From NCBI GenBank assembly GCA_040754075.1, contig JBFMDH010000002.1, positions 326,221-390,220 on the forward strand: DNA of 64,000 nt, given 5' to 3'. Every line of letters starts with the position of its first letter. Position 1 is the first letter of the stretch. Of the stretch, positions 19,694-39,651 are shown piece by piece. The translations under genes and the position numbers were made by a program. The notes under the pieces were generated by a model. That model was given only the letters and a program-made list of their open reading frames with translations. It was not told the origin of the DNA and ran no database searches. The DNA is from Acidobacteriota bacterium. Its GTDB lineage: Bacteria > Acidobacteriota > Blastocatellia > UBA7656.

Positions 19694-22456
19694 ATGACTG
19701 GACATGAAATCAGACAAAAGTTTTTAGACTATTTTGCCGAGCGCGGGCATCGCATCGTGAAAAGCTCGCCTCTGCTTCCGGCAAATGACCCGACTTTGTT
19801 ATTTACCAATGCCGGGATGAATCAATTCAAAGATGTATTTTTGGGCGCGGAACAACGCGACTACAAACGCGCTACGTCTTCGCAAAAATGTATACGCGCG
19901 GGCGGCAAACATAACGACCTCGACGAAGTCGGACGCACCACGCGCCATCATACCTTTTTTGAGATGCTCGGCAATTTTTCATTCGGCGATTACTTCAAAA
20001 AAGAAGCCATCTATTTTTCGTGGGATTTGCTGGTAAACGTTTTTGGTCTTGACCCGAAGCGTTTGTGGTTTACGGTGTTCGGCGGCGACGATGAAGTTCC
20101 GGCAGACGACGAAGCAGCGCGTTACTGGGAACAGGTCGGCGCGCCGCCTGAGCGCATCCTCAGATTCGGACGCAAAGACAATTTCTGGCAGATGGGCGAA
20201 ACCGGACCCTGCGGACCCTGTTCGGAAATTCATTACTATCAAGGCGAACACCCGGAAGACCCTGAGTTCAATCGCGCCGAATATGTCAATGGCACGGGCG
20301 ACATCACCATGGAAATCTGGAACGACGTGTTCATGCAATACAACCGCTACGTCAAACCGGGAACCGAAAATCAATATGTGCTTGACCCATTACCCGCGCC
20401 ATCCGTGGATACCGGCATGGGACTTGAGCGCATCACCGCAGTCATTCAAGGCGTCAGTTCAAATTACGAAACCGACCTCATCAAGCCGATTATCAATTTC
20501 ATCGCAGAGCTTGCGGGAAAAGTTTATGTCTATGATTCGCCCGAAGGTTTTGCTATGCGGGTGCTGGCTGACCACGCGCGTTCGGCTTCGTTTTCAATTG
20601 CCGATGGCATCGCGCCGGGCAATGTCGGCAGAAATTATGTGCTCAGAAAAATTTTGCGCCGCGCCATCTATCACGGCATCACGGGACTCAAGTTGCAACC
20701 GCCGTTTTTCCATAAAGTGTGCGAGTTTGTCATTGAGTTAATGAAAGAGCCGTACCCTGAACTCATCGCGGCGCGTCCGGCTATCGTGGAAATCGTTCAG
20801 CGCGAAGAACGCAGCTATAGCCGCATTTTAAATATTGCCGAACCGCGCAGCGCCGAGGTGTTCAATAAATACAAAGATGAAATGCCGCCGATGAGTGAAC
20901 TCGCGAAGTTGTACGACACTTATGGGGTGCCGACCGATTTGATTCGCGTCAAACTCAGTCAACGCGGTTGGGACATTGAAGAGAACGAATTCACCGAACA
21001 GTTCAACGCGGCGATTGCCGAATTGCAACAAAGCGGCGCGCAGGAAGCGACGACTATAGCTAAAAGAACAAGCCCCATTTATGGGTTAGCTGCAAGACTC
21101 ACAATCAACTTTGCGCCACGATTTATCGGCTACGAAGAGCTTGAGACTTCAAATGCGCGTGTTCTTGCTATTATTGTTGACGGTAAGTTGCGAGCTATCG
21201 ATAACGATGCACCTGAAGGGCCTCTCGCGTATGACAATAAACCTGTTATTAACAATAAGCCTCTATTAGCCGGGGAAAATGGAGAGGTTCTTCTTAGCAG
21301 CACACCTTTTTATGCTGAAGCAGGTGGTCAAGTTGGTGACACTGGAATATTGGAAGGTGAGAATATTTTAGCAACTGTACAAGATACTTTTTCTCCATCA
21401 CAGGGGTTTATTTTCCATAAAGTAAAAATAGAAAGCGGTCAACTCAACGTAGGAGACAGTGTGACGGCACGGGTTGACGCCGAGCGTCGCCGGAAGATCA
21501 AAGCCAATCACACGGGCACGCATTTATTGCACGCGGCGTTGCGCGAGGTTTTGGGTCCGCACGTCAAACAAGCCGGTTCGCTGGTTGCGCCCGATAGATT
21601 ACGGTTCGATTTTTCGCATTACGCGCCGCTCAGCGCCGAAGAAATTGCTGAGATTGAAGAACTCGTCAACCGCGAAATACTGCTCAATCGCCCGACCCAG
21701 ACCGAACTCAAATCTTATGATGAAGCGGTGAAATCGGGCGCGATGGCGCTATTCGGCGAAAAATATGGCTCTACGGTGCGCGTCGTCAGCGTGCCGGGAT
21801 TTTCAACTGAACTTTGCGGCGGCACGCACGTTCGCGCCACGGGCGATATTGGTCCTTTCAAAATCATCAGCGATTCGTCGATTGCCGCAGGTGTCAGACG
21901 ACTTGAAGCGGTTACCGCCGATGCGGCAATCGCGCGATTTCAAGCCGATGAACAGGTCGTCACCGAACTCACCCAGAGTTTGAAAGTGACGCCCAATGAA
22001 CTGCCGCAGGCGATTGATAAATTGCAGGAGCAGGTGCGCAAGTACGAACGCGAAATCGAGCAGTTGAAATTAAAGATTGCCCAATCGGCGGCGGCTTCGG
22101 CTACGGAAAATGCGCGACAGATTGCCGACATCAAGGCGCTTGCAACTGAAGTGTCGAACCTCGATGCCAATGGTATGCGCCAGCTTGCCGATAACTTGTC
22201 GCAAAAAATCAAGAGCGGGGTTGTCGTCTTAGGACAAAAGGGCGATGGCAAAGTTTCGCTGGTGGTTCGCGTGTCGGATGATTTGACCAAACGACTCAAC
22301 GCCGGGCAGATTGTTCGCGAAGTGTCGGCGTTTGTCGGCGGCAAAGGCGGCGGTCGCCCGGATATGGCAACCGGCGGCGGCGCGCAGGTCGAAAACCTGG
22401 AATCGGCTCTGGAAGCCAGTTACAAGGTCGTTGAACAAATGTTGAACGGTAAATAA
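19694..22456 (+). CDS. alaS: alanine--tRNA ligase (920 aa, ~40 aa longer than typical)
   Basis: Class II aaRS motifs, editing-domain HxxxH...CGGTH motif (CGGTHV), a C-terminal coiled coil and a DHHA1-like end (GGKGGGRPDMA). Confidence 0.95.
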   Translation: MTGHEIRQKFLDYFAERGHRIVKSSPLLPANDPTLLFTNAGMNQFKDVFLGAEQRDYKRATSSQKCIRAGGKHNDLDEVGRTTRHHTFFEMLGNFSFGDYFKKEAIYFSWDLLVNVFGLDPKRLWFTVFGGDDEVPADDEAARYWEQVGAPPERILRFGRKDNFWQMGETGPCGPCSEIHYYQGEHPEDPEFNRAEYVNGTGDITMEIWNDVFMQYNRYVKPGTENQYVLDPLPAPSVDTGMGLERITAVIQGVSSNYETDLIKPIINFIAELAGKVYVYDSPEGFAMRVLADHARSASFSIADGIAPGNVGRNYVLRKILRRAIYHGITGLKLQPPFFHKVCEFVIELMKEPYPELIAARPAIVEIVQREERSYSRILNIAEPRSAEVFNKYKDEMPPMSELAKLYDTYGVPTDLIRVKLSQRGWDIEENEFTEQFNAAIAELQQSGAQEATTIAKRTSPIYGLAARLTINFAPRFIGYEELETSNARVLAIIVDGKLRAIDNDAPEGPLAYDNKPVINNKPLLAGENGEVLLSSTPFYAEAGGQVGDTGILEGENILATVQDTFSPSQGFIFHKVKIESGQLNVGDSVTARVDAERRRKIKANHTGTHLLHAALREVLGPHVKQAGSLVAPDRLRFDFSHYAPLSAEEIAEIEELVNREILLNRPTQTELKSYDEAVKSGAMALFGEKYGSTVRVVSVPGFSTELCGGTHVRATGDIGPFKIISDSSIAAGVRRLEAVTADAAIARFQADEQVVTELTQSLKVTPNELPQAIDKLQEQVRKYEREIEQLKLKIAQSAAASATENARQIADIKALATEVSNLDANGMRQLADNLSQKIKSGVVVLGQKGDGKVSLVVRVSDDLTKRLNAGQIVREVSAFVGGKGGGRPDMATGGGAQVENLESALEASYKVVEQMLNGK

Positions 22457-22477
22457 TTTTTAGGTGAAAAGAACGAA

Positions 22478-23110
22478 ATGACTGAACTGAATAACATTAA
22501 TAATGAACCGTCACTGAGACGAAAAGATTTAGCCGCGAGTCCGTTTGCACAATTCGACAAATGGTACAAAGAGGCACAAAACACCGAACACAAATTCGCC
22601 AATGCCATGACGCTGGCAACCGCGACCCGCGAAAATGTGCCGTCGGCGCGGGTGGTATTGCTCAAAGATTTTGATGAAGAAGGTTTCGTTTTCTTCACCA
22701 ACTATGACAGCCAGAAAGGCGACGAACTTGCTGAAAACCCCATTGCCTGCCTGAATTTCTACTGGGAACAACTTGATAGACAGGTGCGCATCACCGGGCG
22801 GGTGACGAAAACTTCGCGCGAAGAGTCCGAAGAATATTTCCGCACCCGCCCGCTGGAAAGCCGTCTTGGCGCATGGGCTTCCAAACAAAGCCGCGTGATT
22901 GAGTCGCGGGCGGTTTTAGAAAATGAAATGCAACAGCTCAAGGAAAAATACGCCGATGGCGAAGTCCCGTTGCCGGCTTACTGGGGCGGGTATCGGGTAG
23001 CGGCAGAGGCGATAGAGTTCTGGCAAAATCGCACAGGACGATTGCACGACCGCTTTCGTTATACCCGACAAGCGGATGGCAGTTGGTTGATTGAGCGGTT
23101 GTCGCCTTAA
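22478..23110 (+). CDS. pdxH: pyridoxamine 5'-phosphate oxidase
   Basis: FMN-binding split barrel and the C-terminal WGGYRV...EFWQ...RLHDR motif. Confidence 0.9.
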   Translation: MTELNNINNEPSLRRKDLAASPFAQFDKWYKEAQNTEHKFANAMTLATATRENVPSARVVLLKDFDEEGFVFFTNYDSQKGDELAENPIACLNFYWEQLDRQVRITGRVTKTSREESEEYFRTRPLESRLGAWASKQSRVIESRAVLENEMQQLKEKYADGEVPLPAYWGGYRVAAEAIEFWQNRTGRLHDRFRYTRQADGSWLIERLSP

Positions 23111-23416
23111 ATTTTCTTTGCGAGCAGCTTAAATTTTTCTTACAGCTTGATATTTTCCTCTCCTTCAAATATAACGATTCCGATTCACCCGGCAGTATTA
23201 TCGCTTTCCCTAGCTATGCGGTTTTATGAAGGTTAATAAACTGGAAATCATTAACGCGACCCGTTCAAAGAGGCGGGTTGTAATTTTGCTCACTCAAGAA
23301 CTAACTCGGTAAGGATGAAATTCAGGTTTGCGGTTGATCCCCCCTTTCAACACTTTATGTACTGGCAATCGTAAGATTTGAATTTCCGCTCCTATTTAAA
23401 GCATGGAGGACAATCT

Positions 23417-26400
23417 ATGGAGATGTTCAAAAAGTCAAAATGGATAGTTGCTTTTCTTTTGACCTTTACGCTGGGATTTCAAGCCAGCGTTTTCGCGCAA
23501 ACCCAAATCACCACAGGGGTGATTCAAGGAACGGTTTTAGACCCGCAAGGCGCATCGGTTGCCGATGCGAAAGTTGAAGTCAAAAACGCGGATACCAATT
23601 TTTCGCGAACCTTATCGACCGATGCGGATGGACGATTTGTGTTTTTGCAGTTGCAACCGGGACGCTACAGCGTCACCATCTCGAAACAGGGTTTCGCAAC
23701 CCTCGTGCAAGAGAATCTCGAACTCACCGTCGGTAAAGCGATCTCTCTCACCTTAAACATGAAAATTTCGCAACTCGAAGAGAAGGTCATCATTACCGCT
23801 GCGCCGACCATTGATGTGGTCAAAACCGAATCCAGTACCACCCTCAATGAACTCGCTGTCAACACCACGCCGATCTTAGGCAGAAAATTTGAAGACCTGT
23901 TGACTCTCACACCCGGCGTCAGCATTACTCAGGGACCGGATGGCGATGAAATCAATTTCGCCGGACAACGCGGCATTTTCAACAATGTCAGTCTTGATGG
24001 CGGCGATTACAACAACGGATTTTTTGGTGAACAGGCGGGCGGTCAACGCGCTGCAATTGACATCACCCTGGAAGCCGTCAAAGAGTTTCAAGTCGTCGCC
24101 ACCGGCGCAAGCGCCGAATTCGGACGCACGGCGGGCGGCGTCATCAACGTCATTACCAAATCCGGCACCAATGATATTCGCGGCAGCCTGTTTCATTTTC
24201 AACGGCTCGAAGGGTTGACCGCAAAAACTTCGGATGGCAAAAAGCTCAATGATTTTCACCGCGAACAATTCGGCGGCACCATCGGCGGCCCGATTGTCAA
24301 AGACACCGCTTTTTACTTTTTTGCCTTCGAGCAAATATTTGAAAAACTCAATCGCGACAATTTGAGCGTGCAAATTGGCGCAACCCCTTGCTCCGTACAA
24401 GCGCCGACGGTTCGCAACAACGAAGCCTTAATCAACAGCAACCCGGATTGTCAACGTCTGGCGTTGCTCAACTTTTTCCGTTCTTCGGTCGGACAGGAAG
24501 AGGGCAATCCGGTCAGCCATAAAATCCGCAACTCAGCGATTCTCGGCAAACTGGATTTCAGTTTGAATTCAGCCAACAAACTGGCGCTCTCGTATAATTT
24601 TGACCGCTCAAGAAATGCCAACCAGACTTTCGACGTGGATACCTATGGCAATTCCGCCAACGGCACCGAAGGACCATCGAAAATCAATGTCGTCAACGTC
24701 AATTTGTTCAGTTCGATTTCAGCGACCACATTGAACGAAGCGCATTTCACCTATGCGCGTGAAACCCGTCCACGTTCGGCTACGCCTTCCAACATTCCTG
24801 CGGATACCGCGATGGGTTTTGCAACGACGTTTCGTTTCGGCAATCCCTTCTTTTTGCAACCCGGCGTTGACGAAGTGTTCTGGCGCTCCCAGCTCAAAGA
24901 TAACTTCTCGGTTATTGCCGGGGCGCATACTTTTAAAGTAGGCGGCGAATGGATTCACAGTCTCAATGACCAGGTATTTCGCGGCTTTTTCACCGGTCGT
25001 TATATTTTCGATAGCGTAGCCGGATTCCTGCGCTACGCATCGCCTGCGGCATCGGGTGGATTCGGCCCGCGAACCGTCGCCTGCTCAAACGGCACCTATG
25101 TTACCGCGCCCGCGAGTTGTCCGGCAGGCACCACGGCAACCGGCGGTCCGCTGCTGCTTTATTTGCAAGGCGCAGGACGTTCAGGACCGGCAACCGATGA
25201 AGCCGGTGCCTCGAAAATCGACAATGAAGATTATGCGATATTTGCTCAGGATAAATGGCAGATACGCCCGAACTTCACCTTCAATTACGGACTGCGCTGG
25301 GAAGCCCAAATCTTTCCGCAAATGTCGGTCGCGCCGCAAGACACCGCTTATGGCATTTTCCTGAGCGACCCGCGCTTTCCCTCGGACGGCACCTTGCCGA
25401 GCCAGAAGAAGATGTTTCAACCGCGTGTTGGTTTCGCCTGGGATATTTCCGGCAATGCCAAATCGGTTTTGCGAGCCAGTTGGGGAATTTATAACGCCCG
25501 GCAAAATATGTTGTCACAGGTCGGCTCAATCACCACAAACGGCGTGCAACAACAAACCATCTTTCTCAACACCCCGATTATCGCAAGCGGCGCAACCCCG
25601 CCGACCTGGCCTGGACTGGTGACACCGACGGCGCAAAGCTGCGGCTCGAATCCTTTTCCCTGTTTTAGCGGGGTTCGCGTCTTCAGCCGCGATTATGCCA
25701 ACCCGCGCATCTATACCACCAATGTTGCATTCGAGCAGGAGTTGGCTGCAAATCTCGCATTGTATCTCGATTTCACCCACTCGAAAGGCGTACATCTGAC
25801 GCGCTTTTTCAATGCCAATTTTTCGGGAATCTTTTCACCGGAACTCGGTGAAGTCATGGTCGCTTCAAGCTCTGCGAAATCGCTTTATCGCGGGTTCACC
25901 ATCGGACTCAGAAAACGCTTCAGCGACGGGTTCCAGATGGAAACCAATTACACCTGGTCAAAAGACCTCGATGATGATTCCAATGAACGCGACCCGTTCA
26001 CCGACCGCGTCTTTGACCACAATGATTTCTCGAAAGATTATTCGCTGTCGGATCGCGACATTCGCCACAAATTTAACTTTGTCGCGTTTGCCGAAATCGG
26101 CGCAGGATTCCAGTTCAACGGGCGTATTCAAGCGCGTTCGGCGCAACCGATTACGCCGAACCCGCGTGTTGTAAACGGCGTTGATTTGGGACGCAACAGC
26201 ATTCGCAAAGACAATGAATTTTTCTCCTTCGATTGGCGATTGACGCGCCCGTTCAAATGGGGTGAACGCTATTCGCTGATTCCGATTTTTGAAATGTTCA
26301 ACACCTTTAACAATAAAAACAACATCAACCCGCTGGCAACCCCCGGACTGTTCAACTTCGACGGCTTCCTGCGCGTTGGTGTTGGCGACCCCAGACAAGT

Positions 26401-26428
26401 GCAACTTGCCCTGAGGTTCACTTTCTAA
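23417..26428 (+). CDS. TonB-dependent outer-membrane receptor with N-terminal carboxypeptidase-regulatory-like domain (track start 23378; ATG at 23417 follows a GGAGGA RBS)
   Basis: Signal peptide MEMFKKSKWIVAFLLTFTLGFQASVFAQT, a CarbopepD_reg domain (GVIQGTVLDPQGASVADAKVEV...GRYSVTIS), the plug domain, and a long beta-barrel ending in an aromatic residue (LRFTF). Confidence 0.8.
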   Translation: MEMFKKSKWIVAFLLTFTLGFQASVFAQTQITTGVIQGTVLDPQGASVADAKVEVKNADTNFSRTLSTDADGRFVFLQLQPGRYSVTISKQGFATLVQENLELTVGKAISLTLNMKISQLEEKVIITAAPTIDVVKTESSTTLNELAVNTTPILGRKFEDLLTLTPGVSITQGPDGDEINFAGQRGIFNNVSLDGGDYNNGFFGEQAGGQRAAIDITLEAVKEFQVVATGASAEFGRTAGGVINVITKSGTNDIRGSLFHFQRLEGLTAKTSDGKKLNDFHREQFGGTIGGPIVKDTAFYFFAFEQIFEKLNRDNLSVQIGATPCSVQAPTVRNNEALINSNPDCQRLALLNFFRSSVGQEEGNPVSHKIRNSAILGKLDFSLNSANKLALSYNFDRSRNANQTFDVDTYGNSANGTEGPSKINVVNVNLFSSISATTLNEAHFTYARETRPRSATPSNIPADTAMGFATTFRFGNPFFLQPGVDEVFWRSQLKDNFSVIAGAHTFKVGGEWIHSLNDQVFRGFFTGRYIFDSVAGFLRYASPAASGGFGPRTVACSNGTYVTAPASCPAGTTATGGPLLLYLQGAGRSGPATDEAGASKIDNEDYAIFAQDKWQIRPNFTFNYGLRWEAQIFPQMSVAPQDTAYGIFLSDPRFPSDGTLPSQKKMFQPRVGFAWDISGNAKSVLRASWGIYNARQNMLSQVGSITTNGVQQQTIFLNTPIIASGATPPTWPGLVTPTAQSCGSNPFPCFSGVRVFSRDYANPRIYTTNVAFEQELAANLALYLDFTHSKGVHLTRFFNANFSGIFSPELGEVMVASSSAKSLYRGFTIGLRKRFSDGFQMETNYTWSKDLDDDSNERDPFTDRVFDHNDFSKDYSLSDRDIRHKFNFVAFAEIGAGFQFNGRIQARSAQPITPNPRVVNGVDLGRNSIRKDNEFFSFDWRLTRPFKWGERYSLIPIFEMFNTFNNKNNINPLATPGLFNFDGFLRVGVGDPRQVQLALRFTF

Positions 26429-26502
26429 TTTGCGCTTGCTGTGATTTAAATGGTCAACTGAAAACCCCGAAACGTCTTGCGGTTGTTAGACGCTTCGGGG
26501 TT

Positions 26503-28194
26503 TTGTTATATTGCGCCGCGCGTTCCCTGTTGCAATTCAATCACAAAAAAACGAATTTCGGAGCCACATTCTTGCGCGTTATTTCGCTTATTGGGTTTTT
26601 CATCATTCTCAGCCTCGCCTGGCTGGTTTCGTTCAATCGGCGTGACGTAAAACTGCGCCCGGTCATTTGGGGCATCGCCTTGCTGTTGATTCTGGCAATC
26701 ATCATTTTTCGTCAGGATGCGTTGAGTTTCGTCGGGATGACGTTGCTTGCGCTTCTGGTGATTGTTTACCTGCTTGAACGGACGGCTGAAAACCAGCAAC
26801 AGAAATGGCAATGGCGAATTTTTGTCGTCGTTGGCGCTTTGCTTGTCGGGGCGCTTTCTTTGCTATTGCCGACGCGATTTCTCATCATCGGATTTTTTGT
26901 GCTCATTCCGATTCTCTTGATTAACGGGCGATTTAAATTGCTGCCCAACGCGCAAAAATATGCAAGCGCGTTGCTCATCATTTTTGCGACTGCCAGTTTG
27001 ATAAAACAGAACCTTCACGGCAACCAGTTGTTTCAAATCATCGGCGATAAAATCACCAGCTTTCTGAATCTGTCGGATTACGGCGCAAGGTTTTTATTCG
27101 GCAACCTTGCCGACCCGCAATATTACTTTCCGAATGCCGAGACTAACTGGCCCGGACTTGGGTTTCTGGTTGCCTTCAAAGTGTTGCCGGTGATCATTTT
27201 TTTCAGCGCCTTGATGGCGTTGCTCTACTACCTGGGGATTATGCAAAGCGTGCTGGCGGCTGTCAGTCGTTTCGTTTGCTGGACGACCGGCACGAGCGGC
27301 GCGGAAACCCTGGTCTGTACCGCAAACATTTTCATCGGGCAAACCGAAGCGCCGCTGTTGATTCGCCCGTATATGGACGGCTTGACCAATTCCGAAGTTG
27401 TGACGGTGATGCTTGCGGGGTTTGCGACCATGGCGGGTAGCACGCTTGGGGTGTACGGCGCATTCGGCATTCCGATTCAACATATCCTTGCGGCGTCTGT
27501 GTTGTCTGCGCCGGCGGCACTGGTCATCGCGAAAATTCTGTTTCCCGAAAAGGAACATCCGCAAACCGCAGGCGATGTTGAAATTCCCAAAGTCCATGTG
27601 GGCGCGAATGTCTTTGAGGCACTGGCAAACGGCATCGGCGATGGATTGAAATTAGCCGCGAATGTCGGCGCGATGTTGATTGGCTTTATCGCTTTGGTTG
27701 CGGCGCTCGATTCACTATTCAGCCTTTGCGATTACTGGATTGACGGGAGACTACTAGGCGGCGAGCACATCGACTATGCGGTTCGTGGACTCACGCCGGT
27801 GAATGGCGAATACGTCGGCATTTTCCCGGGGTCGCTGCAAACCCTGTTTGGCACGATTATGCGCCCGGTTGCGTGGTTAATTGGCGTGCAATGGTCGGAA
27901 GCGGCGCAGGTCGGCAACCTCATCGGCATTCAACTTTCGCTCAACGAATTTATCGCTTACGGGACATTGGGCGGCTACATTCGCGCCGGGGCAATCAGTG
28001 AACGCTCGATGATTTTAACCACCTATGCAATTTGCAGCTTTGCCAATTTTTCAAGCATCGGCATTCAAATCGGCGGCTTGAGCGCGTTGGTTCCCGGTCG
28101 CAAAAAAGATTTCGCGCGCTTCGCCCTGAGAGCCATGTTTGGTGGCGCAATGGCTTCGTGGCTCACGGCTGCGCTGGCGGGAATGTTGTTATAA
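26503..28194 (+). CDS. concentrative nucleoside transporter (NupC/CNT family) with N-terminal extension
   Basis: CNT-family motifs (GxxxxxGVYGAFGIP and the C-terminal hairpin region GIQLSLNEFIAYG...) and multi-TM hydropathy. The real start is probably downstream of the annotated one. Confidence 0.75.
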   Translation: MLYCAARSLLQFNHKKTNFGATFLRVISLIGFFIILSLAWLVSFNRRDVKLRPVIWGIALLLILAIIIFRQDALSFVGMTLLALLVIVYLLERTAENQQQKWQWRIFVVVGALLVGALSLLLPTRFLIIGFFVLIPILLINGRFKLLPNAQKYASALLIIFATASLIKQNLHGNQLFQIIGDKITSFLNLSDYGARFLFGNLADPQYYFPNAETNWPGLGFLVAFKVLPVIIFFSALMALLYYLGIMQSVLAAVSRFVCWTTGTSGAETLVCTANIFIGQTEAPLLIRPYMDGLTNSEVVTVMLAGFATMAGSTLGVYGAFGIPIQHILAASVLSAPAALVIAKILFPEKEHPQTAGDVEIPKVHVGANVFEALANGIGDGLKLAANVGAMLIGFIALVAALDSLFSLCDYWIDGRLLGGEHIDYAVRGLTPVNGEYVGIFPGSLQTLFGTIMRPVAWLIGVQWSEAAQVGNLIGIQLSLNEFIAYGTLGGYIRAGAISERSMILTTYAICSFANFSSIGIQIGGLSALVPGRKKDFARFALRAMFGGAMASWLTAALAGMLL

Positions 28195-28201
28195 TTGGCT
28201 A

Positions 28202-29998
28202 ATGAAACCGTCATCATTTCTACATAACTCATTAATCGTCATCGGCGGCGCGTCGCTCGATATTCTGCATTTTGCGGGGCGCACCGAACGTTCAGCCGGA
28301 GGCTCAGGGCTTTATACATCGCTTGCGGCGCATCGCATGGGGCGGCGTGTGACCATGATTGCGCCGCGTCCCAGTCCTGTGCCGCCTGAGCTTGAACTTG
28401 CTGATGAGCGCCTGGATTGGCGTGGCGTCGCGTTTCCTCCCGAAGAGTTGCCGACCTTTGAAATCGCGCACCTCGGCAACGGACAAACCAAATATCTGAA
28501 CATCTGGTGGCGAGCCGAAAAATATCTGTCGCTCGATTACGTGCCGGATGATTTGCCTGAAGGCCTGGTCTACTGCATCCCGATGATTGATACCCAACAT
28601 CAGGTAGAATTTTTGCGCCACTTCAAATCGCTTGGTCGCGTTATTGCCTGCGGCACCCATCAAGGAGCGGTGAATCAGCAACTCGAAGCGGTGCGCGAGT
28701 CACTGAGCCTTGTGGATTTTTTCTTCTGCAATGAAGATGAAGCGCGCGGCATTTTCGGCACGCTCGACCGGGCGCGAACTGCAGCCGGTAAAACGCTTTT
28801 CATTACACGCGGCGCGCAAGGTGTGCGGGTTATTCAAGGCGAATACGCAACTGATGTTGCGGGCGTCTGGGTTGATGAATTAGACCCGACGGGTGCGGGC
28901 GATACTTTTTGTGGCACGACGCTCGCGCTGCTTGCCGAAGGCGCGCATCCGGTAATGGCGGCGCGATATGGCGTGGTTGCAGCGGCAGAAATGGTAACGA
29001 AAATCGGACCCGATGCTTTATTTAATGCGCCGCCTGTGACTGGGCAGGATGCCCGCGTAGAGATTGACTTGGAGCAGATAAAAAATATTGCATCATTCAT
29101 TCGCGGGATTTCGGAAGTAACGGCTTATGATTTCGTCGGCGAATATTTTCCCGAAGTCGGAAGCCCGCAGGCGCTTGACTATTTTTTCACAGCGACCTTG
29201 CAGCAATTCGGTTTTTGGAGCGAACAGGACGGGCGCTACTTTGAACCGATGATTGCTTCGATAAATGGTCGAAAGCTGAAAGGCAGTGATTATCTGTGGG
29301 CGACCTATTACCGGATGATGAACGAGCAGGCTGATTTGCTTTCACCCGCAGGACATGCCGCGCTTGATGCCGCAACGCTTGAAACCTTCTATCGTGCCGA
29401 TGACGCGAGCAATCCGCTGTCGGTTTTTGATGAACGGTTGAAACTGGCGCAAACTTACGGGCGCGATTTGCAAACCTTGGGACTCACGCCCGCTGAAATT
29501 ATTGAACGCGCCAACGCGAGCAACAAACCTTTGCAAACGTTTCTCGCTTTTCTCGATTACCTTGGCGGTTACAAAGAAGACCCGTTAAGAAAAAAATCGG
29601 CATTGCTGGCGATTATTTTGCAACAACGACCGGAAAAGTTTTTGCGTGAGTCAGGCGATGAACTGGTGCCGCCGATTGTTGATTATCACATTCAACGAAG
29701 TTGTTTGCGCATTGGATTGGTGAAAGTCGTTGACCGTGATTTACGCGAGCGTCTTGAACGACGCGAAGTCTTACTGCCCGCTGAAGAGTGGGCGATTCGC
29801 GAAGCGGTTTATCGCGCGATGAATGAATTGCAACAAGTGAGCGGCTGTTCGATGGGCGCACTGGATAAATTCTTTTTCGATAATCGTCACCGCTGTCCCG
29901 AAATGAGCGAACCCGATTGCGCCAGTTGCCCGATTGATGCAGTCTGCGCGCATCAGAAATCGCTTTTTCAACCGGTCATCCGCACAACCTTTTATTGA
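28202..29998 (+). CDS. PfkB-family carbohydrate/nucleoside kinase fused to ~320-aa C-terminal domain of unknown function ending in a 4-Cys motif
   Basis: Ribokinase-like N-terminal domain (IVIGGASLDIL...GGSGLYTS...DPTGAGDTFCG with the GAGD anion hole). The C-terminal half has no confident family; DUF2419/Q_salvage-like is tentative. The tail reads CPEMSEPDCASCPIDAVCAH. Track start 28139 overlaps the transporter; the ATG at 28202 is preferred. Confidence 0.6.
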   Translation: MKPSSFLHNSLIVIGGASLDILHFAGRTERSAGGSGLYTSLAAHRMGRRVTMIAPRPSPVPPELELADERLDWRGVAFPPEELPTFEIAHLGNGQTKYLNIWWRAEKYLSLDYVPDDLPEGLVYCIPMIDTQHQVEFLRHFKSLGRVIACGTHQGAVNQQLEAVRESLSLVDFFFCNEDEARGIFGTLDRARTAAGKTLFITRGAQGVRVIQGEYATDVAGVWVDELDPTGAGDTFCGTTLALLAEGAHPVMAARYGVVAAAEMVTKIGPDALFNAPPVTGQDARVEIDLEQIKNIASFIRGISEVTAYDFVGEYFPEVGSPQALDYFFTATLQQFGFWSEQDGRYFEPMIASINGRKLKGSDYLWATYYRMMNEQADLLSPAGHAALDAATLETFYRADDASNPLSVFDERLKLAQTYGRDLQTLGLTPAEIIERANASNKPLQTFLAFLDYLGGYKEDPLRKKSALLAIILQQRPEKFLRESGDELVPPIVDYHIQRSCLRIGLVKVVDRDLRERLERREVLLPAEEWAIREAVYRAMNELQQVSGCSMGALDKFFFDNRHRCPEMSEPDCASCPIDAVCAHQKSLFQPVIRTTFY

Positions 29999-30282
29999 AA
30001 ATTATCTCTTTAGAGCGGGTTGCAAAACGATTTACTGAGGTTAAACAAGCCCAACGACGCGGTCAAAGATCGCTTCCTCAACTTTTCCATTTTTCTGCTC
30101 GCAAAATTTCCAGTCAGGTTTCACTAAGGCTTCACGCCTGAAGCGGCGATGAAAACGGAGGTGAAATGAAATGTGTGAAATCATCGCACAGGCGTTTACC
30201 GGCATCGGCAATTTACTGCTGATGTTTTTTTAGTAAATAACTCTTAGTCTTCCGAAACCGACAGGCATATAATTCAGCCGCC

Positions 30283-30831
30283 ATGTTCAAAGGTTTATTC
30301 GACAATCAAACCGCCAAAGAGATTCAACAACAAGAGCGCGAATATCTTGACAATCAAAAACGCGAAGACCTCACGCGCCGCGCCGCGCAATTTGATTTAA
30401 GCGCGCTTGATGAAGCGCGCGGCAATGCCAATCGTTATCAGGAAATTTTAGATACTCTCATCGAACAAATTTTTGCGAGTCAGGAAAAATTAGAGGCGCT
30501 CGTCAGCCACATTTCAAAAAGCCGTGAACTTCGCGCCTCTCAACGGCTTGCTGAAATCGTAATGGAACAGTTTAAAAATTCACCAAACACAAAAAACTTG
30601 ACGCAGATGTTACACATTGCCGCGCTTGCCGATGATGCGGCAGTTTTCGGAAAAAGTATTGAACTCGCGGTAGATTTTTGGAAAAAAGGATTGCTGCCGA
30701 AATTATCTGCAAAAAAATTGCTCACTCTGATGCAGAGCGAGTATTGGTTGCTCTCGTCAACTGCGAAACGTTCAGGCGATGGGTTTGGTTTAAAAACCCG
30801 CCTCGGTGAACTTCGCAATCAGTTGACCTGA
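30283..30831 (+). CDS. hypothetical protein (182 aa), precedes flotillin-like gene
   Basis: ORF with coding composition and no recognised family. Confidence 0.4.
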   Translation: MFKGLFDNQTAKEIQQQEREYLDNQKREDLTRRAAQFDLSALDEARGNANRYQEILDTLIEQIFASQEKLEALVSHISKSRELRASQRLAEIVMEQFKNSPNTKNLTQMLHIAALADDAAVFGKSIELAVDFWKKGLLPKLSAKKLLTLMQSEYWLLSSTAKRSGDGFGLKTRLGELRNQLT

Positions 30832-33710: not shown

Positions 33711-34586
33711 ATGGAATCGAAACCTCTCAGAATTATCGCGCCGCTTGCGGTTTTATTGCTGTTTTACTGGGCGATTTATGTCGCGCCGCTCATGACTGGC
33801 AAAGATTCAGCGATTTTGAATGCCGAACAGGCGCATGAAATTTTTGACGAGAGCCGTTTCCAACTTCATGAAAAAAAATATCAGGAAGCGCTGGAACTCA
33901 CTGAGCGATTGAATAAAGCCTTTCCGCAAAATCATATCTATCTGGAACAACTGGCAACCATTCATCATTACCTGGGCAATTTCAAAGAAGAAGCTGACGC
34001 CTGGGAACGCTATATGCTCTATTCACCGACTCCCCTGGATGCCTGCCCGCAATTTGGCGAAGCTTACCGCGCCCTCAACCGGATTCCTGAAATGTTTGAG
34101 GCTTGTAAAAAATGCTATGAGTTAGACCCGCGTAACACTTACTCGATTTTCTTCCTGGCGCTTTCCTATGAACGGCTCGGGCAGCTTGAAAAAGCCCAAG
34201 AACTTTATGAAAAAGGCGTGGAAATATATCCGATTTACCCGGATTTGCGCATCGGTCTTACGCGCATCCATATACGCCTTGGCAACCTGGCGCAAGCGCG
34301 CGCGATCATCACCAAAGTCTATGAAGAATATCCCGACAATGTTGATGGATTATTGGCGATGGGGGTATTGCTGAGAGCCGAAGGTCGCGCCGGTGAAGCG
34401 AAAATGTTTCTTGAACGCGGCGTCGAGCTTTCACCCCGCTACACCGATTTTTACATCGTGCTGGCGGGGATTGCCGAAAGCGAAGGCAACCGCGAGGATG
34501 CCGTGGCTTATTACGATAAGGTTCTGGAACTTGCCCCCGATAATCCTGATATTGAAAGCAAACGCAAGCGATTGCTGGGAGGCTAG
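33711..34586 (+). CDS. TPR-repeat protein with N-terminal TM/signal segment
   Basis: Multiple 34-aa TPR units (AxxxYxxLG...A) and an N-terminal hydrophobic segment. Confidence 0.65.
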   Translation: MESKPLRIIAPLAVLLLFYWAIYVAPLMTGKDSAILNAEQAHEIFDESRFQLHEKKYQEALELTERLNKAFPQNHIYLEQLATIHHYLGNFKEEADAWERYMLYSPTPLDACPQFGEAYRALNRIPEMFEACKKCYELDPRNTYSIFFLALSYERLGQLEKAQELYEKGVEIYPIYPDLRIGLTRIHIRLGNLAQARAIITKVYEEYPDNVDGLLAMGVLLRAEGRAGEAKMFLERGVELSPRYTDFYIVLAGIAESEGNREDAVAYYDKVLELAPDNPDIESKRKRLLGG

Positions 34587-34588
34587 GG

Positions 34589-37102
34589 GTGTTCATACAA
34601 AAAGCTATCAGTTATGGTTCACGCCTGCTTTTTCTCGGCTTTTTTGTGTTGACCTCGGTTTATTGCCTGCTCGCCTATATTCCGTTTGCCTACTTTCAAT
34701 TTTTAAAATTCAATCACCTTGCCACGCTTACGGCTTTCGTTAAATTTCATCCGCTTATTTTCTGGGCAGTCGTGGTGGTTATTTTCCTAGGACTTCGCGA
34801 AGCCTTGCGTGCCGAGAAAACCCGTAACCTGACGCGCTTGCTTTTGGGCTTTCTCGTATTGACGGGTGTCGCGCTCAGCCTTCATCCGGCGCTTGCCAAT
34901 ATTCAAAACAACTTTGCGAGTTTCGTTTTCAGCATCCTTGCGTTAATTCCGGTTTTATTGCTCATCCTGATTGATTGGAAAACCCACATTGAAAAAGTTG
35001 AATGGACGAAAACCGATTTTAGCGAAGACCGGCGTATCTTTTTTGCGACCGTCTGCACTGCGCTTTTTGTCGCGCTGCTCTATACAACGATTTTCACTAT
35101 CCGGCAGGGGCAACAATCCGGCGGTTTGACAAAAAACGAACTGATGATTGCCGCAAGTTGGAGTCTGGTCTCGCACCTGTTGCTGTTTACCGCGCTGTTT
35201 GTGGCATTCAATTTCATTCGCGCCATCGCCCGATTATCCGAAAAGCCTGCCAAGACCGAATTTTTGATGTGCAATTTGCTCGGCATGTTGATGATGGCGT
35301 ATTCACTGAGAACCGTCGCGCTTGCCGGTATCTCGTTTTATGGTTTGCTCGCCAGCCTTTATTCTTACGTTGCGAGTTTCACTATCGTCGGCTTCATTGC
35401 CAGCCTCAGTTTACGCTTGTACAAACCCGAAGCCGGCGAAGTGCGTAGCGGGCTTGCATTCGCTTTGCTGCCATTTACTCTTGGACGCATTCATTCACCC
35501 ATCGCTCGCGCCATCTGGGTCGTTACGCTCATGGTTGTCGCCTATTTGCTTGCTGTTCAAGTTGCGTTATTTGACTGGAATTTTCTCGCGCAAAAACTCA
35601 CTGTCAACCTGATGTGGGTGGTGATATTCGCGTTCTTTTACGCAGTCACCAGGCGGTCATACAATAAACGCGATTTGACCTACGTTTTACTGGTGGTTGC
35701 CGCACTCAGTCTGGGATTTTATAAAGGCTTGAACCGGGCGCAGACGCAACTACCGGCGCTGACGAAAAACGCCAATCTCGATGTGCGCTCAACCCTTGAA
35801 CGCTATGCCGGTCAGGACATTTCGTTTCGCCTGATCAACGAAATCCTTACCCCGGTGCGCGATGACGGTTCATTCTTTCGGTTTCTGCAAAAAAATACCA
35901 ACATCCCGCAAGCCACCAGAGTTGACCCGGTGGATATAAAACTGGTTTCGGATTTGCAGGCGACGAAACATAAAAAGCCGAATATCTTTATCTTCACCAT
36001 TGACAGTCTGAGACAGGATTATCTATCCGCCTACAATGCGAAAGTGAATTTCACGCCGTCGCTTGATGCCTTTGCCAGAGAGAGCATCGTGATGGAAAAC
36101 GCTTTTACGCATTACGGCGCGACAGGGCTTTCGGAACCGTCAATCTGGGTTGGCGGAATGAGTGTGCATAAACAATATGTCACGCCGTTTCATCCGATGA
36201 ATACTTTACAGAAATTGATTGAGTCGGAAGGCTATCAAGCCTATATCAGCATGGATACGATTCTTTCCGTAGTCGTCAAACCTGAGCCGTATATCGAAGA
36301 GTTGAATGATGAAGAGAGCGGCAGAGAATATGAACTATGTGGCTGTTTAAAAAGTTTGCAAACCAAAATCGAAGCGCGAGCCGACACCGCCAATCCGCTT
36401 TTCGTTTATACCCAGCCGCAAAATATTCATGTTTCGGTGATTAACCGGCAAGGGCAATCCATTGTCGAAGCCGGAGATTACACAGGATTTTATGCGCCGT
36501 ATGCTTCACGGGTTAAAAAAATCGACAGATGTTTCGGCGAATTTGTGGAGTTTCTCAAACGTAAAGAGATGTATGACAACAGCGTGATTGTGTTTACCTC
36601 AGACCACGGCGATTCGCTCGGCGAAAATGGACGCTGGGGACATGCCTATACGATTTATCCCGAAATTATTCGCATTCCGCTCATCATTCATCTGCCGCCG
36701 CATTTACAAAAAGGGCTGGTTTGGAATACGCAAACCCTGGCTTTTTCAACAGACATCACCCCGAGTCTGTATTACCTGTTCGGACATCGGAACTTGATGA
36801 ATCATCCGATGTTCGGCAGACCGTTGTTTACCGAAAGCGAAGAGGAACAGTCGGCTTACTTACAGCCCTGGTATTTGATTAGTTCGAGCTATGGCGCGGT
36901 CTATGGCATTTTGAGCAACAACGGTCGGTCGCTCTATATCAGCGATGCGGTGAATTACGCCGATTACTTTTACGATTTGGAACACGACCCGGCGGGCACA
37001 CACAATCAAACGAACTCGTTTATTAAAATGGAAAATGAAAAATTGATTCGTGAAGGCATTGAAAAGATTAACGAAATGTATCGCTTTAACCCCGCTGAGT
37101 GA
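34589..37102 (+). CDS. polytopic membrane protein with C-terminal sulfatase/alkaline-phosphatase-superfamily domain (LtaS/EptA/BcsG-like phospho-transferase)
   Basis: About 430 aa of multiple TM helices, then NIFIFTIDSLRQDY... and TSDHGDSLGENGRWGH, which are metal-binding motifs of the sulfatase family. First gene of the putative EPS locus. Confidence 0.7.
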   Translation: MFIQKAISYGSRLLFLGFFVLTSVYCLLAYIPFAYFQFLKFNHLATLTAFVKFHPLIFWAVVVVIFLGLREALRAEKTRNLTRLLLGFLVLTGVALSLHPALANIQNNFASFVFSILALIPVLLLILIDWKTHIEKVEWTKTDFSEDRRIFFATVCTALFVALLYTTIFTIRQGQQSGGLTKNELMIAASWSLVSHLLLFTALFVAFNFIRAIARLSEKPAKTEFLMCNLLGMLMMAYSLRTVALAGISFYGLLASLYSYVASFTIVGFIASLSLRLYKPEAGEVRSGLAFALLPFTLGRIHSPIARAIWVVTLMVVAYLLAVQVALFDWNFLAQKLTVNLMWVVIFAFFYAVTRRSYNKRDLTYVLLVVAALSLGFYKGLNRAQTQLPALTKNANLDVRSTLERYAGQDISFRLINEILTPVRDDGSFFRFLQKNTNIPQATRVDPVDIKLVSDLQATKHKKPNIFIFTIDSLRQDYLSAYNAKVNFTPSLDAFARESIVMENAFTHYGATGLSEPSIWVGGMSVHKQYVTPFHPMNTLQKLIESEGYQAYISMDTILSVVVKPEPYIEELNDEESGREYELCGCLKSLQTKIEARADTANPLFVYTQPQNIHVSVINRQGQSIVEAGDYTGFYAPYASRVKKIDRCFGEFVEFLKRKEMYDNSVIVFTSDHGDSLGENGRWGHAYTIYPEIIRIPLIIHLPPHLQKGLVWNTQTLAFSTDITPSLYYLFGHRNLMNHPMFGRPLFTESEEEQSAYLQPWYLISSSYGAVYGILSNNGRSLYISDAVNYADYFYDLEHDPAGTHNQTNSFIKMENEKLIREGIEKINEMYRFNPAE

Positions 37103-37293
37103 CGCTAAAAATTTGTATTGTAACCTGTTAAGGGGAGCCTTAAAATCTAGAAGCTTTTGTCAGGGCGCAAATTATAAATATAAATTCAGTTACCAAGCTA
37201 CAGCGTATTTGCCTCAGACTTCCTGAATGCCCCTCATCCTGAAAGGCTGTCATGCTGCCTGTTTTTGGGTTCAATCTTTGTGAGTATTTGTCT

Positions 37294-38526: not shown

Positions 38527-38545
38527 GATGTGACTAAAAATAAAT

Positions 38546-39616: not shown

Positions 39617-39651
39617 GCGAATGTTATTTTTGCCATTATCGACTGACTGAT

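What the first reader, a model, noticed from the sequence alone, without database searches (positions are those of the whole stretch)
26503..29998. NupC-family nucleoside transporter followed by a PfkB-kinase fused to a ~320-aa unknown domain with a Cys4 tail: candidate nucleoside (possibly queuosine) salvage module
The second gene starts within or immediately after the transporter gene. Its N-terminal half is a ribokinase-like kinase (GAGD anion hole). Its C-terminal half matches nothing I can place confidently. A kinase fused to a second catalytic domain directly downstream of a nucleoside importer reads as a substrate-channelling salvage pathway: import the nucleoside, phosphorylate it at the 5' position, then process it. 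One speculative fit is queuosine salvage. The DUF2419/Qng1 family hydrolyses queuosine-5'-phosphate and has been noted near nucleoside transporters, and a fused kinase would supply its substrate. This identification is inference only. The C-terminal CPEMSEPDCASCPIDAVCAH motif suggests a metal or Fe-S site not expected for either family.
Basis: inference. Interest (0 to 1): 0.6.

Follow-up and report, generated by a model that had tools for sequence, protein, structure and literature searches.

The report
Nucleoside importer plus kinase–Qng1-like glycosidase fusion
An Acidobacteriota operon pairs a nucleoside importer with one protein that joins a nucleoside kinase to an iron-sulfur-motif relative of the queuosine-salvage enzyme Qng1, which points to a candidate family for the still-unidentified kinase that feeds Qng1.

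Summary
Two co-directional genes lie 7 nt apart: a NupC/CNT transporter (probable start 26572, stop 28194) and a 598-aa protein (28202..29998).

The N-terminal half of the second protein is a PfkB kinase with its catalytic motifs intact. The "unknown" C-terminal half is a clear Qng1/DUF2419 homologue:
- Pfam Q_salvage scores above its threshold.
- hhalign against canonical Qng1 gives probability 97%.

The Qng1 catalytic Asp-Tyr, the HhH lysine, the base-reading Asp and the C-terminal Tyr are all conserved. The Cys4 tail is invariant and aligns in register with the four [4Fe-4S] ligands of endonuclease III.

The fusion occurs in at least 363 species, mostly Chloroflexota, Gemmatimonadota and Acidobacteriota among the 80 best loci. 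NupC is directly adjacent in 9 loci, with at least 5 different flanking contexts and both gene orders.

Most likely mechanism: import a nucleoside, phosphorylate it at the 5' position, then cleave the nucleotide to base plus ribose-5-phosphate. This is the logic of the pseudouridine psuT-psuK-psuG module, built here on a Qng1 fold.

Queuosine is the leading substrate but is unproven. Two residues of the Qng1 queuine pocket (Tyr93/Trp94) are Ser/Asp here, no Q-pathway gene is operonically linked, and no riboswitch was found. I found no published description of this fusion.

The parts
26572..28194 (+). NupC/CNT-family nucleoside transporter gene. The mechanical ORF starts at 26503; the probable start is TTG 26572, giving 540 aa.
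   Evidence: Pfam Nucleos_tra2_N, Gate and Nucleos_tra2_C all pass threshold. It is 32% identical to E. coli PsuT and NupX (E 5e-65 and 4e-69). The start is supported by a GGAG 8 nt upstream and by the L001 orthologue.
28202..29998 (+). Gene for the 598-aa bifunctional protein: PfkB kinase fused to a Qng1-like glycosidase.
   Evidence: It is identical to P0001 and has more than 120 full-length homologues. The AF2 model has pLDDT 94.9 and pTM 0.94.
28229..29026 (+). PfkB (ribokinase-like) nucleoside kinase domain, residues ~10-275. It carries GG 15-16, D20, NEDE 177-180 and GAGD 231-234 (nt 28892-28903).
   Evidence: PF00294 E 1.7e-21. Foldseek top hits are ribokinases and nucleoside kinases, for example 3kd6. 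The phmmer best hit is 3kd6, E 1.5e-11. The motifs are invariant or nearly invariant.
29057..29995 (+). Qng1/DUF2419-like HhH-fold nucleotide N-glycosidase domain, residues ~286-598. It carries K464, D494-Y495-H496 (nt 29681-29689), E529, D555 and F559.
29894..29947 (+). Cys4 motif CPEMSEPDCASCPIDAVC (C565, C573, C576, C582), a putative [4Fe-4S] cluster loop.
   Evidence: All four Cys are invariant in 120 sequences. The exact spacing occurs in 58 of 66 complete family representatives. The only hhalign match to E. coli Nth puts all four Cys in register with C187, C194, C197 and C203.
29963..29995 (+). C-terminal tail LFQPVIRTTFY ending in invariant Tyr598. It is the counterpart of the Qng1 tail ...RTRTIFY323, whose terminal carboxylate is part of the active site.
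   Evidence: Conservation is shown. The role of Y323 is from PMC9881137.
26461..26507 (+). Strong hairpin followed by a T-rich run, between the upstream TonB-dependent receptor gene and NupC. It is a probable terminator and so marks the 5' boundary of the NupC-fusion unit.
   Evidence: The sequence is and the fold. An equivalent hairpin with different sequence is present in L001.
30201..30236 (+). Terminator-like stem-loop plus T run, about 200 nt after the fusion gene's stop codon.
   Evidence: Pattern scan only. Such sites were not enriched over shuffled sequence.

Best explanation
This is a two-gene nucleoside salvage unit. The NupC/CNT transporter imports a ribonucleoside. The N-terminal PfkB domain of the next protein phosphorylates its 5'-OH with ATP, which traps it in the cell. 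The C-terminal Qng1-type HhH-fold domain then hydrolyses the N-glycosidic bond of the resulting nucleoside 5'-monophosphate, releasing the free base and ribose-5-phosphate.

The glycosidase probably uses Asp494 as nucleophile or oxocarbenium stabiliser, Lys464 and the terminal carboxylate of Tyr598 to hold the ribose, and Asp555 to read a guanine-type edge. It probably carries an endonuclease-III-like [4Fe-4S] cluster on Cys565, 573, 576 and 582.

The substrate is most likely a guanine-type or 7-deazaguanine-type modified nucleoside. Queuosine is the leading candidate (about 0.35-0.4): Q to Q-5'-MP to queuine.

Shown here: the domain identities, the conservation of catalytic residues, the recurrence of the fusion and the NupC linkage. 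Inferred: the order of the reactions, the Fe-S cluster and the identity of the substrate.
For: Domain identities:
- PfkB and Q_salvage both pass Pfam thresholds.
- hhalign to canonical bacterial Qng1 gives probability 97.3% over 274 columns.

Residue mapping, StQng1 to this protein:
- D231-Y232 to D494-Y495
- K199 to K464
- I203 to L468
- E267 to E529
- D298 to D555
- W302 to F559
- F75/W76 to F338/W339
- Y323 to Y598
All of these are invariant or nearly invariant in 120 sequences. Their roles in Qng1 are taken from PMC9881137.

Substrate logic:
- Q-5'-MP, not Q, is the preferred Qng1 substrate, and the kinase that makes it is still unidentified.
- A basic patch sits at the position of the Qng1 phosphate pocket: H496, R562, H563, R564 and K360.
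- The kinase motifs GG, D20, NxxE and GAGD are conserved.
- The nearest solved relative of the kinase domain is a nucleoside kinase, 3kd6.

Genomic recurrence:
- The fusion is conserved in at least 363 GTDB species.
- NupC is directly adjacent in 9 loci, with 0-26 nt gaps, at least 5 different flanking contexts and both gene orders.

Precedent: E. coli psuK (PfkB), psuG (nucleotide glycosidase) and psuT (NupC family) form one cluster. PsuG-PsuK fusions exist in eukaryotes.

Cys4 motif: it aligns with the endonuclease III cluster ligands.
Against: - No enzymology was possible.
- The queuine-specific pocket is only partly kept. Y93/W94 become the invariant S362/D363, H53 becomes F316, and W299 becomes K556 in this protein (Trp in most relatives).
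- tblastn found none of Tgt, QueA, QueC, QueD, QueE, QueF or YhhQ in 168 loci or in the window. QueG lies 5-10 kb away on the opposite strand in only two lineages.
- No preQ1 or other riboswitch was found.
- NupC adjacency holds in only about 10% of loci. Other neighbours are heterogeneous.
- Canonical Qng1 genes show no kinase or NupC linkage.
- StQng1 prefers Q-5'-MP over Q by only 1.7-fold, so the order of the two reactions is not forced.
Confidence: 0.62

Rival explanations
1. The module is a general purine-nucleoside catabolic route for guanosine, inosine or xanthosine. It imports the nucleoside, makes the NMP, and splits it into base plus ribose-5-phosphate for carbon and purine salvage, with no link to queuosine.
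For: - The neighbours point to general base and nucleotide metabolism. A Xan_ur_permease gene is convergent in Woeseiaceae loci. A phosphoribosyltransferase sits next to a stand-alone homologue, and an S1-P1 nuclease next to another.
- No Q-pathway gene is linked.
- The Tyr93/Trp94 pocket residues of Qng1 are replaced.
- A divergent homologue is fused to GTP cyclohydrolase II.
- The family is widespread and highly conserved.
Against: - Characterised Qng1 enzymes do not cleave AMP, GMP, CMP or UMP.
- Aromatic pocket residues are largely retained: F311, F316 and W556 in most members.
- Bacteria already have cheaper routes for canonical nucleosides, namely phosphorylases and hydrolases (established knowledge).
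Confidence: 0.15
2. The reaction order is reversed. The Qng1-like domain hydrolyses the imported nucleoside directly, and the PfkB domain is a ribokinase that captures the released ribose.
For: - Bacterial StQng1 prefers Q-5'-MP over Q by only 1.7-fold.
- The best NCBIfam match of the kinase is ribokinase, TIGR02152, E 1.7e-13.
- Many Foldseek top hits are ribokinases.
Against: - The ribokinase profile matches only the ATP-binding C-terminal part (residues 186-291) and scores far below its cutoff (50.6 vs 299.65 bits).
- The best sequence hit in the PDB is a nucleoside kinase bound to AMP (3kd6).
- The ribokinase substrate motif GGKGANQ (from memory) reads GGSGLYT here.
- A basic patch sits at the position of the Qng1 phosphate pocket.
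Confidence: 0.1
3. The module disposes of alkylated or otherwise modified guanine nucleosides, such as m7G or O6-alkylguanosine, that arise from RNA or DNA turnover. It would then be a clean-up pathway allied to DNA repair.
For: - In Chloroflexota loci the gene follows an ATL-like protein that has only the MGMT DNA-binding domain, with PWQRV in place of PCHRV, or an AlkZ-related glycosylase homologue.
- The fold and the Fe-S motif are those of base-excision glycosylases.
- An invariant Asp363 in the pocket could pair with a cationic base (inference).
Against: - Those neighbours are limited to related Chloroflexota and may reflect synteny.
- The near-full-length alignment to Qng1 (293 of 321 residues) and the four short strands at residues 339-360 suggest that the Qng1-specific insertions, which in Qng1 block the DNA-binding cleft, are kept. 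Action on DNA is therefore unlikely.
- Phosphorylating a damaged nucleoside is an odd way to detoxify it.
Confidence: 0.08

Closest known systems
Qng1/QNG1 (DUF2419, Pfam PF10343), the queuosine-5'-phosphate N-glycosylase/hydrolase of Sphaerobacter thermophilus and human C9orf64
   Same: - The same catalytic Asp-Tyr, HhH lysine and base-reading Asp.
- An aliphatic and an aromatic residue sandwiching the base.
- A Glu that anchors the tail.
- A protein that ends in ...RTxxFY, with the terminal Tyr.
   Different: - Only ~20% identity.
- Fused to a PfkB kinase; none of the top 120 canonical bacterial Qng1 hits is fused.
- A ~26-residue insertion carries an invariant Cys4 motif between the last helix and the tail.
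- Tyr93/Trp94 of the queuine pocket are Ser/Asp, and His53 is Phe.
- Lys233 of the phosphate pocket is His.
[quoted passage not shown]
   Same: The same three-part logic: a NupC-family importer, a PfkB kinase that makes the 5'-monophosphate of a modified nucleoside, and a glycosidase that acts on the nucleotide. The kinase and glycosidase are also found fused, in eukaryotes. The transporter here is 32% identical to PsuT.
   Different: - The glycosidase has an unrelated fold (HhH/Qng1, not PsuG), with no significant similarity to PsuG.
- The kinase is not a PsuK orthologue, with no significant BLASTP match.
- The domain order is kinase then glycosidase, whereas the eukaryotic fusion is PsuG then PsuK.
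- The bond cleaved would be C-N, not C-C.
Endonuclease III / MutY type HhH-GPD DNA glycosylases with a C-terminal [4Fe-4S] cluster loop
   Different: - The first spacer is 7 residues, not 6.
- The Qng1 insertions and the C-terminal tail are expected to fill the DNA cleft.
- The expected substrate is a mononucleotide.
QueK and QueL queuosine salvage of Clostridioides difficile (nucleoside hydrolase, then queuine lyase)
   Same: It is a bacterial route that takes imported queuosine and releases the base.
   Different: QueK acts on the nucleoside with no kinase step, according to the cited description. That QueK is a member of the ribonucleoside hydrolase family is my recollection, not tested here. 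No QueL-like gene was examined or seen near the fusion.

Membership tests
Qng1/Q_salvage (PF10343) | Sequence-profile membership | tested here: met
   PF10343 scores 31.2 bits against a gathering threshold of 25, but covers only profile positions 7-129 of 285. The profile of the C-domain finds only DUF2419 chains in the PDB (7ugk 4.4e-7, 7u07 8.6e-4). hhalign against canonical bacterial Qng1 gives probability 97.3%, E 2.1e-11.
Qng1/Q_salvage (PF10343) | HhH fold with the Qng1-specific additions (beta-hairpins, C-terminal tail) that distinguish it from DNA glycosylases | tested here: met
   [not shown]
Qng1/Q_salvage (PF10343) | Catalytic Asp231-Tyr232, HhH Lys199, base-reading Asp298, Trp302 and C-terminal Tyr323 carboxylate | tested here: met
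   The counterparts are D494-Y495, K464, D555, F559 (Trp to Phe) and Y598 as the last residue. All are invariant or nearly invariant.
Qng1/Q_salvage (PF10343) | Queuine (cyclopentenediol) specificity pocket: P46, W48, H53, Y93, W94, W299 | tested here: not met
   The mapping is Y309, F311, F316, S362, D363 and K556 (Trp in most relatives). Y93/W94 are replaced by an invariant Ser-Asp. The pocket is still partly aromatic.
Qng1/Q_salvage (PF10343) | 5'-phosphate pocket: R80, K233, Q306 | tested here: inconclusive
   K233 maps to H496 and Q306 to H563 (Arg in most relatives). R562, R564 and K360 lie nearby. The counterpart of R80 is uncertain because of an adjacent gap.
Qng1/Q_salvage (PF10343) | Hydrolysis of queuosine-5'-monophosphate to queuine | not testable with these tools
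   This needs an enzyme assay.
PfkB / ribokinase-like kinases (PF00294) | Profile match, plus the GG dipeptide, the ribose-binding Asp, the NxxE motif and the GAGD anion hole with its catalytic Asp | tested here: met
   PF00294 E 1.7e-21. G15-G16, D20, N177-E180 and G231-D234 are conserved. Foldseek probability is 1.00 to many ribokinases and nucleoside kinases.
Any named PfkB kinase orthologue group (ribokinase, PsuK and others) | Score above the NCBIfam equivalog cutoff, or a significant match to PsuK | tested here: not met
   The best hit is TIGR02152 at 50.6 bits against a cutoff of 299.65. There is no significant BLASTP match to E. coli PsuK.
NupC/CNT concentrative nucleoside transporters | Nucleos_tra2_N, Gate and Nucleos_tra2_C architecture | tested here: met
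   All three domains are above threshold. It is 32% identical to E. coli NupX and PsuT. TIGR00804 scores 376 bits, below its 442-bit subfamily cutoff.
Endonuclease III-type [4Fe-4S] cluster loop | Four Cys spaced C-x6-C-x2-C-x5-C after the last helix of the HhH domain | tested here: inconclusive
   The spacing here is C-x7-C-x2-C-x5-C and is invariant. The only hhalign match to E. coli Nth puts all four Cys in register, at E 0.011 but low probability. No Pfam cluster-loop hit was found. Geometry and metal content could not be tested.

The most novel reading that the evidence does not exclude
The fusion is a Rosetta-stone identification of the long-missing queuosine kinase as a PfkB-family nucleoside kinase. 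On this reading, free-living Acidobacteriota, Gemmatimonadota and Chloroflexota scavenge environmental queuosine by the same Q to Q-5'-MP to queuine route as human cells. They would do so with an iron-sulfur form of Qng1 that is the evolutionary bridge between endonuclease-III-type DNA glycosylases and the clusterless eukaryotic enzyme. It would also make PfkB kinases such as adenosine kinase or ribokinase the first candidates to test for the human activity.
Probability: 0.35. Interest if true: 0.8.

Novelty: new variant of a known kind. Interest (0 to 1): 0.66.

Why it matters
Qng1/QNG1 acts on queuosine-5'-monophosphate, yet papers from 2023 and 2025 still call the kinase that makes this nucleotide "unidentified". 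A protein that covalently joins a nucleoside kinase to a Qng1 homologue, sits in an operon with a nucleoside importer, and is conserved in hundreds of species gives a concrete, clonable candidate. It also points to one kinase family (PfkB) to test in other organisms, including humans.

The same protein family appears to keep the Fe-S cluster loop of DNA glycosylases. That links a micronutrient-salvage enzyme to its DNA-repair ancestors and would be the first metal cofactor in this family.

Even if the substrate is not queuosine, the module would be a second, independently evolved example of kinase-then-nucleotide-glycosidase recycling of modified nucleosides, after pseudouridine. Databases currently label these proteins "PfkB family carbohydrate kinase" or "hypothetical protein".

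Tried and rejected
1. NupC-kinase-Qng1 triple fusion in L008. This was an artefact of my ORF caller. NupC ends at TAG, and the kinase starts at GTG 10 nt later in another frame.

2. Riboswitch or other known RNA upstream of the operon. The window has no Rfam match at gathering score, and only one chance-level hit at E<=1 in 22400-30400.

3. Physical linkage to queuosine genes. I ran tblastn with E. coli QueA, Tgt, QueC, QueD, QueE, QueF, YhhQ and PpnN against 168 loci plus the window and got zero hits. QueG lies 5-10 kb away on the opposite strand in Palauibacter-type Gemmatimonadota and one Acidobacteriota locus. It is not operonic, and my rough estimate is that this is not significant after multiple testing.

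4. TonB-dependent receptor as part of the operon. It is conserved only in the closest relative, L001, and is separated by a hairpin terminator.

5. Conserved neighbours of stand-alone homologues. Clustering of ORFs in about 30 loci gave no recurrent partner and no PfkB nearby. ORF calling in high-GC DNA was noisy.

6. Kinase or NupC linkage of canonical bacterial Qng1. None was seen in 3 look-ups or among the architectures of the top 120 hits.

7. A Pfam hit for the Cys4 tail alone. None was found.

8. Resources that were unavailable:
- The AFDB50 fold search was not on the machine.
- Zallot et al. 2014 is not held, so I could not check whether that paper mentions bacterial fusions.


Full report
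**What is there**

The region holds two co-directional genes.

The first ORF, 26503..28194, carries the three Pfam domains of concentrative nucleoside transporters, all above threshold. It is 32% identical to E. coli NupX and PsuT.

Its true start is probably TTG 26572. A GGAG lies 8 nt upstream, and the orthologue in the closest relative (L001) starts at the equivalent codon. The stretch 26461-26507 is a strong hairpin with a T-rich tail that closes the upstream TonB-dependent receptor gene.

The NupC stop codon is followed 7 nt later by ATG 28202. That ATG opens a 598-aa protein identical to a database entry from an Acidobacteriota MAG, named "PfkB family carbohydrate kinase". A terminator-like stem-loop follows at 30201-30226. 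NupC and the fusion gene therefore look like a bicistronic unit.

**The N-terminal half**

It is a PfkB kinase (PF00294, E 1.7e-21).
- The GG dipeptide (15-16), Asp20, NxxE (177-180) and the GAGD anion hole (231-234) are invariant or nearly invariant in 120 homologues.
- It matches no named orthologue group. The best NCBIfam hit, ribokinase, scores 51 bits against a cutoff of 300 and covers only the ATP-binding part.
- It has no significant match to E. coli PsuK.
- Its best relative in the PDB is a Chlorobium nucleoside kinase bound to AMP (3kd6). Foldseek returns ribokinases, adenosine kinases and nucleoside kinases.

**The C-terminal half**

The guess is right.
- Pfam Q_salvage passes its threshold (31.2 vs 25 bits), although it covers only the first 129 of 285 profile positions.
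- A profile of the domain finds only the DUF2419 structures among all PDB sequences.
- AlphaFold models are confident: full length pLDDT 94.9 and pTM 0.94; the domain alone pLDDT 92.5.
- Profile-profile comparison with 22 canonical bacterial Qng1 sequences gives probability 97.3%, E 2e-11, over 274 columns.

**Active-site mapping**

I used the residue roles described for StQng1 (PMC9881137) and the alignments.

| StQng1 residue | Role | This protein |
|---|---|---|
| Asp231-Tyr232 | nucleophile, ribose packing | Asp494-Tyr495 |
| Lys199 | HhH lysine, orients ribose | Lys464 |
| Ile203 / Trp302 | sandwich the base | Leu468 / Phe559 |
| Asp298 | reads the guanine-type edge | Asp555 |
| Phe75 | ribose packing | Phe338 |
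| Glu267 | anchors the tail | Glu529 |

The protein ends ...RTTFY, matching the Qng1 tail ...RTRTIFY, whose terminal carboxylate is part of the active site. All these positions are invariant or nearly invariant in 120 sequences. A basic patch (His496, Arg562, His563, Arg564, Lys360) occupies the place of the Qng1 phosphate pocket.

The queuine-specific pocket differs. Tyr93/Trp94 are an invariant Ser362/Asp363, His53 is Phe316, and Trp299 is Lys556 in this protein, though it is Trp in most relatives. The catalytic machinery for cleaving a guanine-type nucleoside 5'-phosphate is therefore intact. The part of the pocket that reads the 7-substituent has been remodelled.

**The Cys4 tail**

- Cys565-x7-Cys573-x2-Cys576-x5-Cys582 is invariant.
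- The exact spacing is present in 58 of 66 complete representatives of the wider family.
- Relative to canonical Qng1 it is a ~26-residue insertion between the last helix and the C-terminal tail.
- The only hhalign match between this domain and E. coli endonuclease III is this segment.
- Endonuclease III and MutY are also among the closest non-Qng1 folds.

The simplest reading is an endonuclease-III-type [4Fe-4S] loop kept by this branch of the Qng1 superfamily and lost in the characterised enzymes. I could not measure geometry or metal content.

**Recurrence**

- The full-length fusion has more than 120 homologues at 51-78% identity and 98-100% coverage.
- It was confirmed in 363 species-level genomes. 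The best 80 split into 33 Chloroflexota, 25 Gemmatimonadota and 12 Acidobacteriota, with the remaining 10 including Polyangiaceae, Woeseiaceae, Coprothermobacterota and Spirochaetota. All 80 are MAGs.
- A search of 1.8 billion cluster representatives found 652 clusters at E<=1e-3.
- These include many stand-alone ~320-aa forms with the same Cys4 motif and tail. They occur in Kiritimatiellia, Verrucomicrobia and Uhrbacteria, and NCBI names some of them "queuosine salvage family protein".
- None of the top 120 canonical StQng1-like proteins is fused to a kinase.

**Linkage to the transporter**

A NupC gene is directly adjacent, with gaps of 0-26 nt, in 9 loci.
- Upstream: the window, L001, L002, L005, L008, L009 and L022.
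- Downstream: L006 and L035.
- About 1 kb away: L018 and L105.

These loci have at least five different flanking contexts. They span three Acidobacteriota classes and a myxobacterium, so the pairing is more than inherited synteny.

Elsewhere the neighbours vary:
- a class-V aminotransferase (L003, L014);
- a convergent nucleobase permease (L068, L074);
- in Chloroflexota, an ATL-like alkyltransferase homologue or an AlkZ-related protein.

**Mechanism**

The arrangement repeats the pseudouridine pathway. In E. coli, psuK (PfkB kinase), psuG (nucleotide glycosidase) and psuT (NupC family) sit together. The kinase and glycosidase are fused in fungi and animals.

Here the glycosidase is Qng1-like, and Qng1 prefers the 5'-nucleotide. 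I therefore propose three steps: import, then 5'-phosphorylation, then N-glycosidic hydrolysis to base plus ribose-5-phosphate.

Queuosine is the leading substrate by homology (about 0.35-0.4), but direct support is missing:
- no Tgt, QueA, QueC-F or YhhQ gene in 168 loci or in the window;
- QueG only at a distance;
- no riboswitch;
- a remodelled pocket.

The rivals are general purine-nucleoside catabolism, a hydrolase-then-ribokinase order, and disposal of alkylated guanine nucleosides.

**Novelty**

- Searches of the held literature found no paper containing "queuosine kinase".
- Searches combining DUF2419 with PfkB, or queuosine with ribokinase, found nothing relevant.
- The Qng1 structure paper mentions no fusion.
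- The kinase is still called unidentified in 2025.
- Zallot et al. 2014 could not be read.

I class this as a new variant of a known kind: a Qng1-type enzyme with a fused kinase and an apparent Fe-S loop. It has a testable bearing on an open question.

Noticed in passing
P0209; loci L175 8001-9665 and L176 3988-5652: A divergent Qng1-like domain (Cys motif C-x8-C-x2-C-x5-C, tail ending WY) is fused to a GTP cyclohydrolase II domain instead of a kinase. It lies next to acetyltransferase, Methyltransf_4, GT2 and PIG-L genes. This may be a small biosynthetic cluster that acts on a guanine-derived nucleotide.
   Followed up: partly
L048 9516-9902; L059 9135-9989 (also L032, L034, L049, L056, L038, L071): In Anaerolineales and Thermoflexales the kinase-Qng1-like gene is preceded by one of two DNA-repair-type genes. 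One is an ATL-like protein that has only the MGMT DNA-binding domain, with PWQRV in place of the active-site PCHRV. The other is an AlkZ-related protein. The alkyl-guanine repair theme is unexplained.
   Followed up: partly
window 23378-26428: A TonB-dependent receptor (CarboxypepD_reg, Plug and OMP beta-barrel domains) lies directly upstream of NupC. It is conserved at 83% identity in L001. A hairpin terminator separates it from NupC, and in L001 a 71-aa ORF that looks MbtH-like (by eye) is inserted between them.
   Followed up: partly
L085 6001-7769: In a Kiritimatiellia/Verrucomicrobia genome, a stand-alone Cys4 Qng1-like gene is followed 3 nt later by an S1-P1 nuclease gene, and then by exonuclease VII subunits. 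In L081 and L093 a phosphoribosyltransferase gene lies 7 nt upstream.
   Followed up: no
window 33711-42302: A run of co-directional genes looks like an exopolysaccharide synthesis and export cluster: a TPR protein, a sulfatase-family membrane protein, a YaiO beta-barrel with TPR, a response regulator, a HEAT-repeat protein and a family-2 glycosyltransferase.
   Followed up: no
window 13058-14515 and 30283-30831: The first ORF is the selenocysteine synthase SelA (PF03841, E 3e-142). The second is a 182-aa ORF just downstream of the fusion gene. It has no Pfam match and is conserved only in L001.
   Followed up: no
L181 5790-7981; L182 5861-8056: Canonical StQng1-like genes in two Chloroflexota-type genomes are transcribed divergently from an adenosine-deaminase-family gene. 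There is no kinase or NupC nearby.
   Followed up: no
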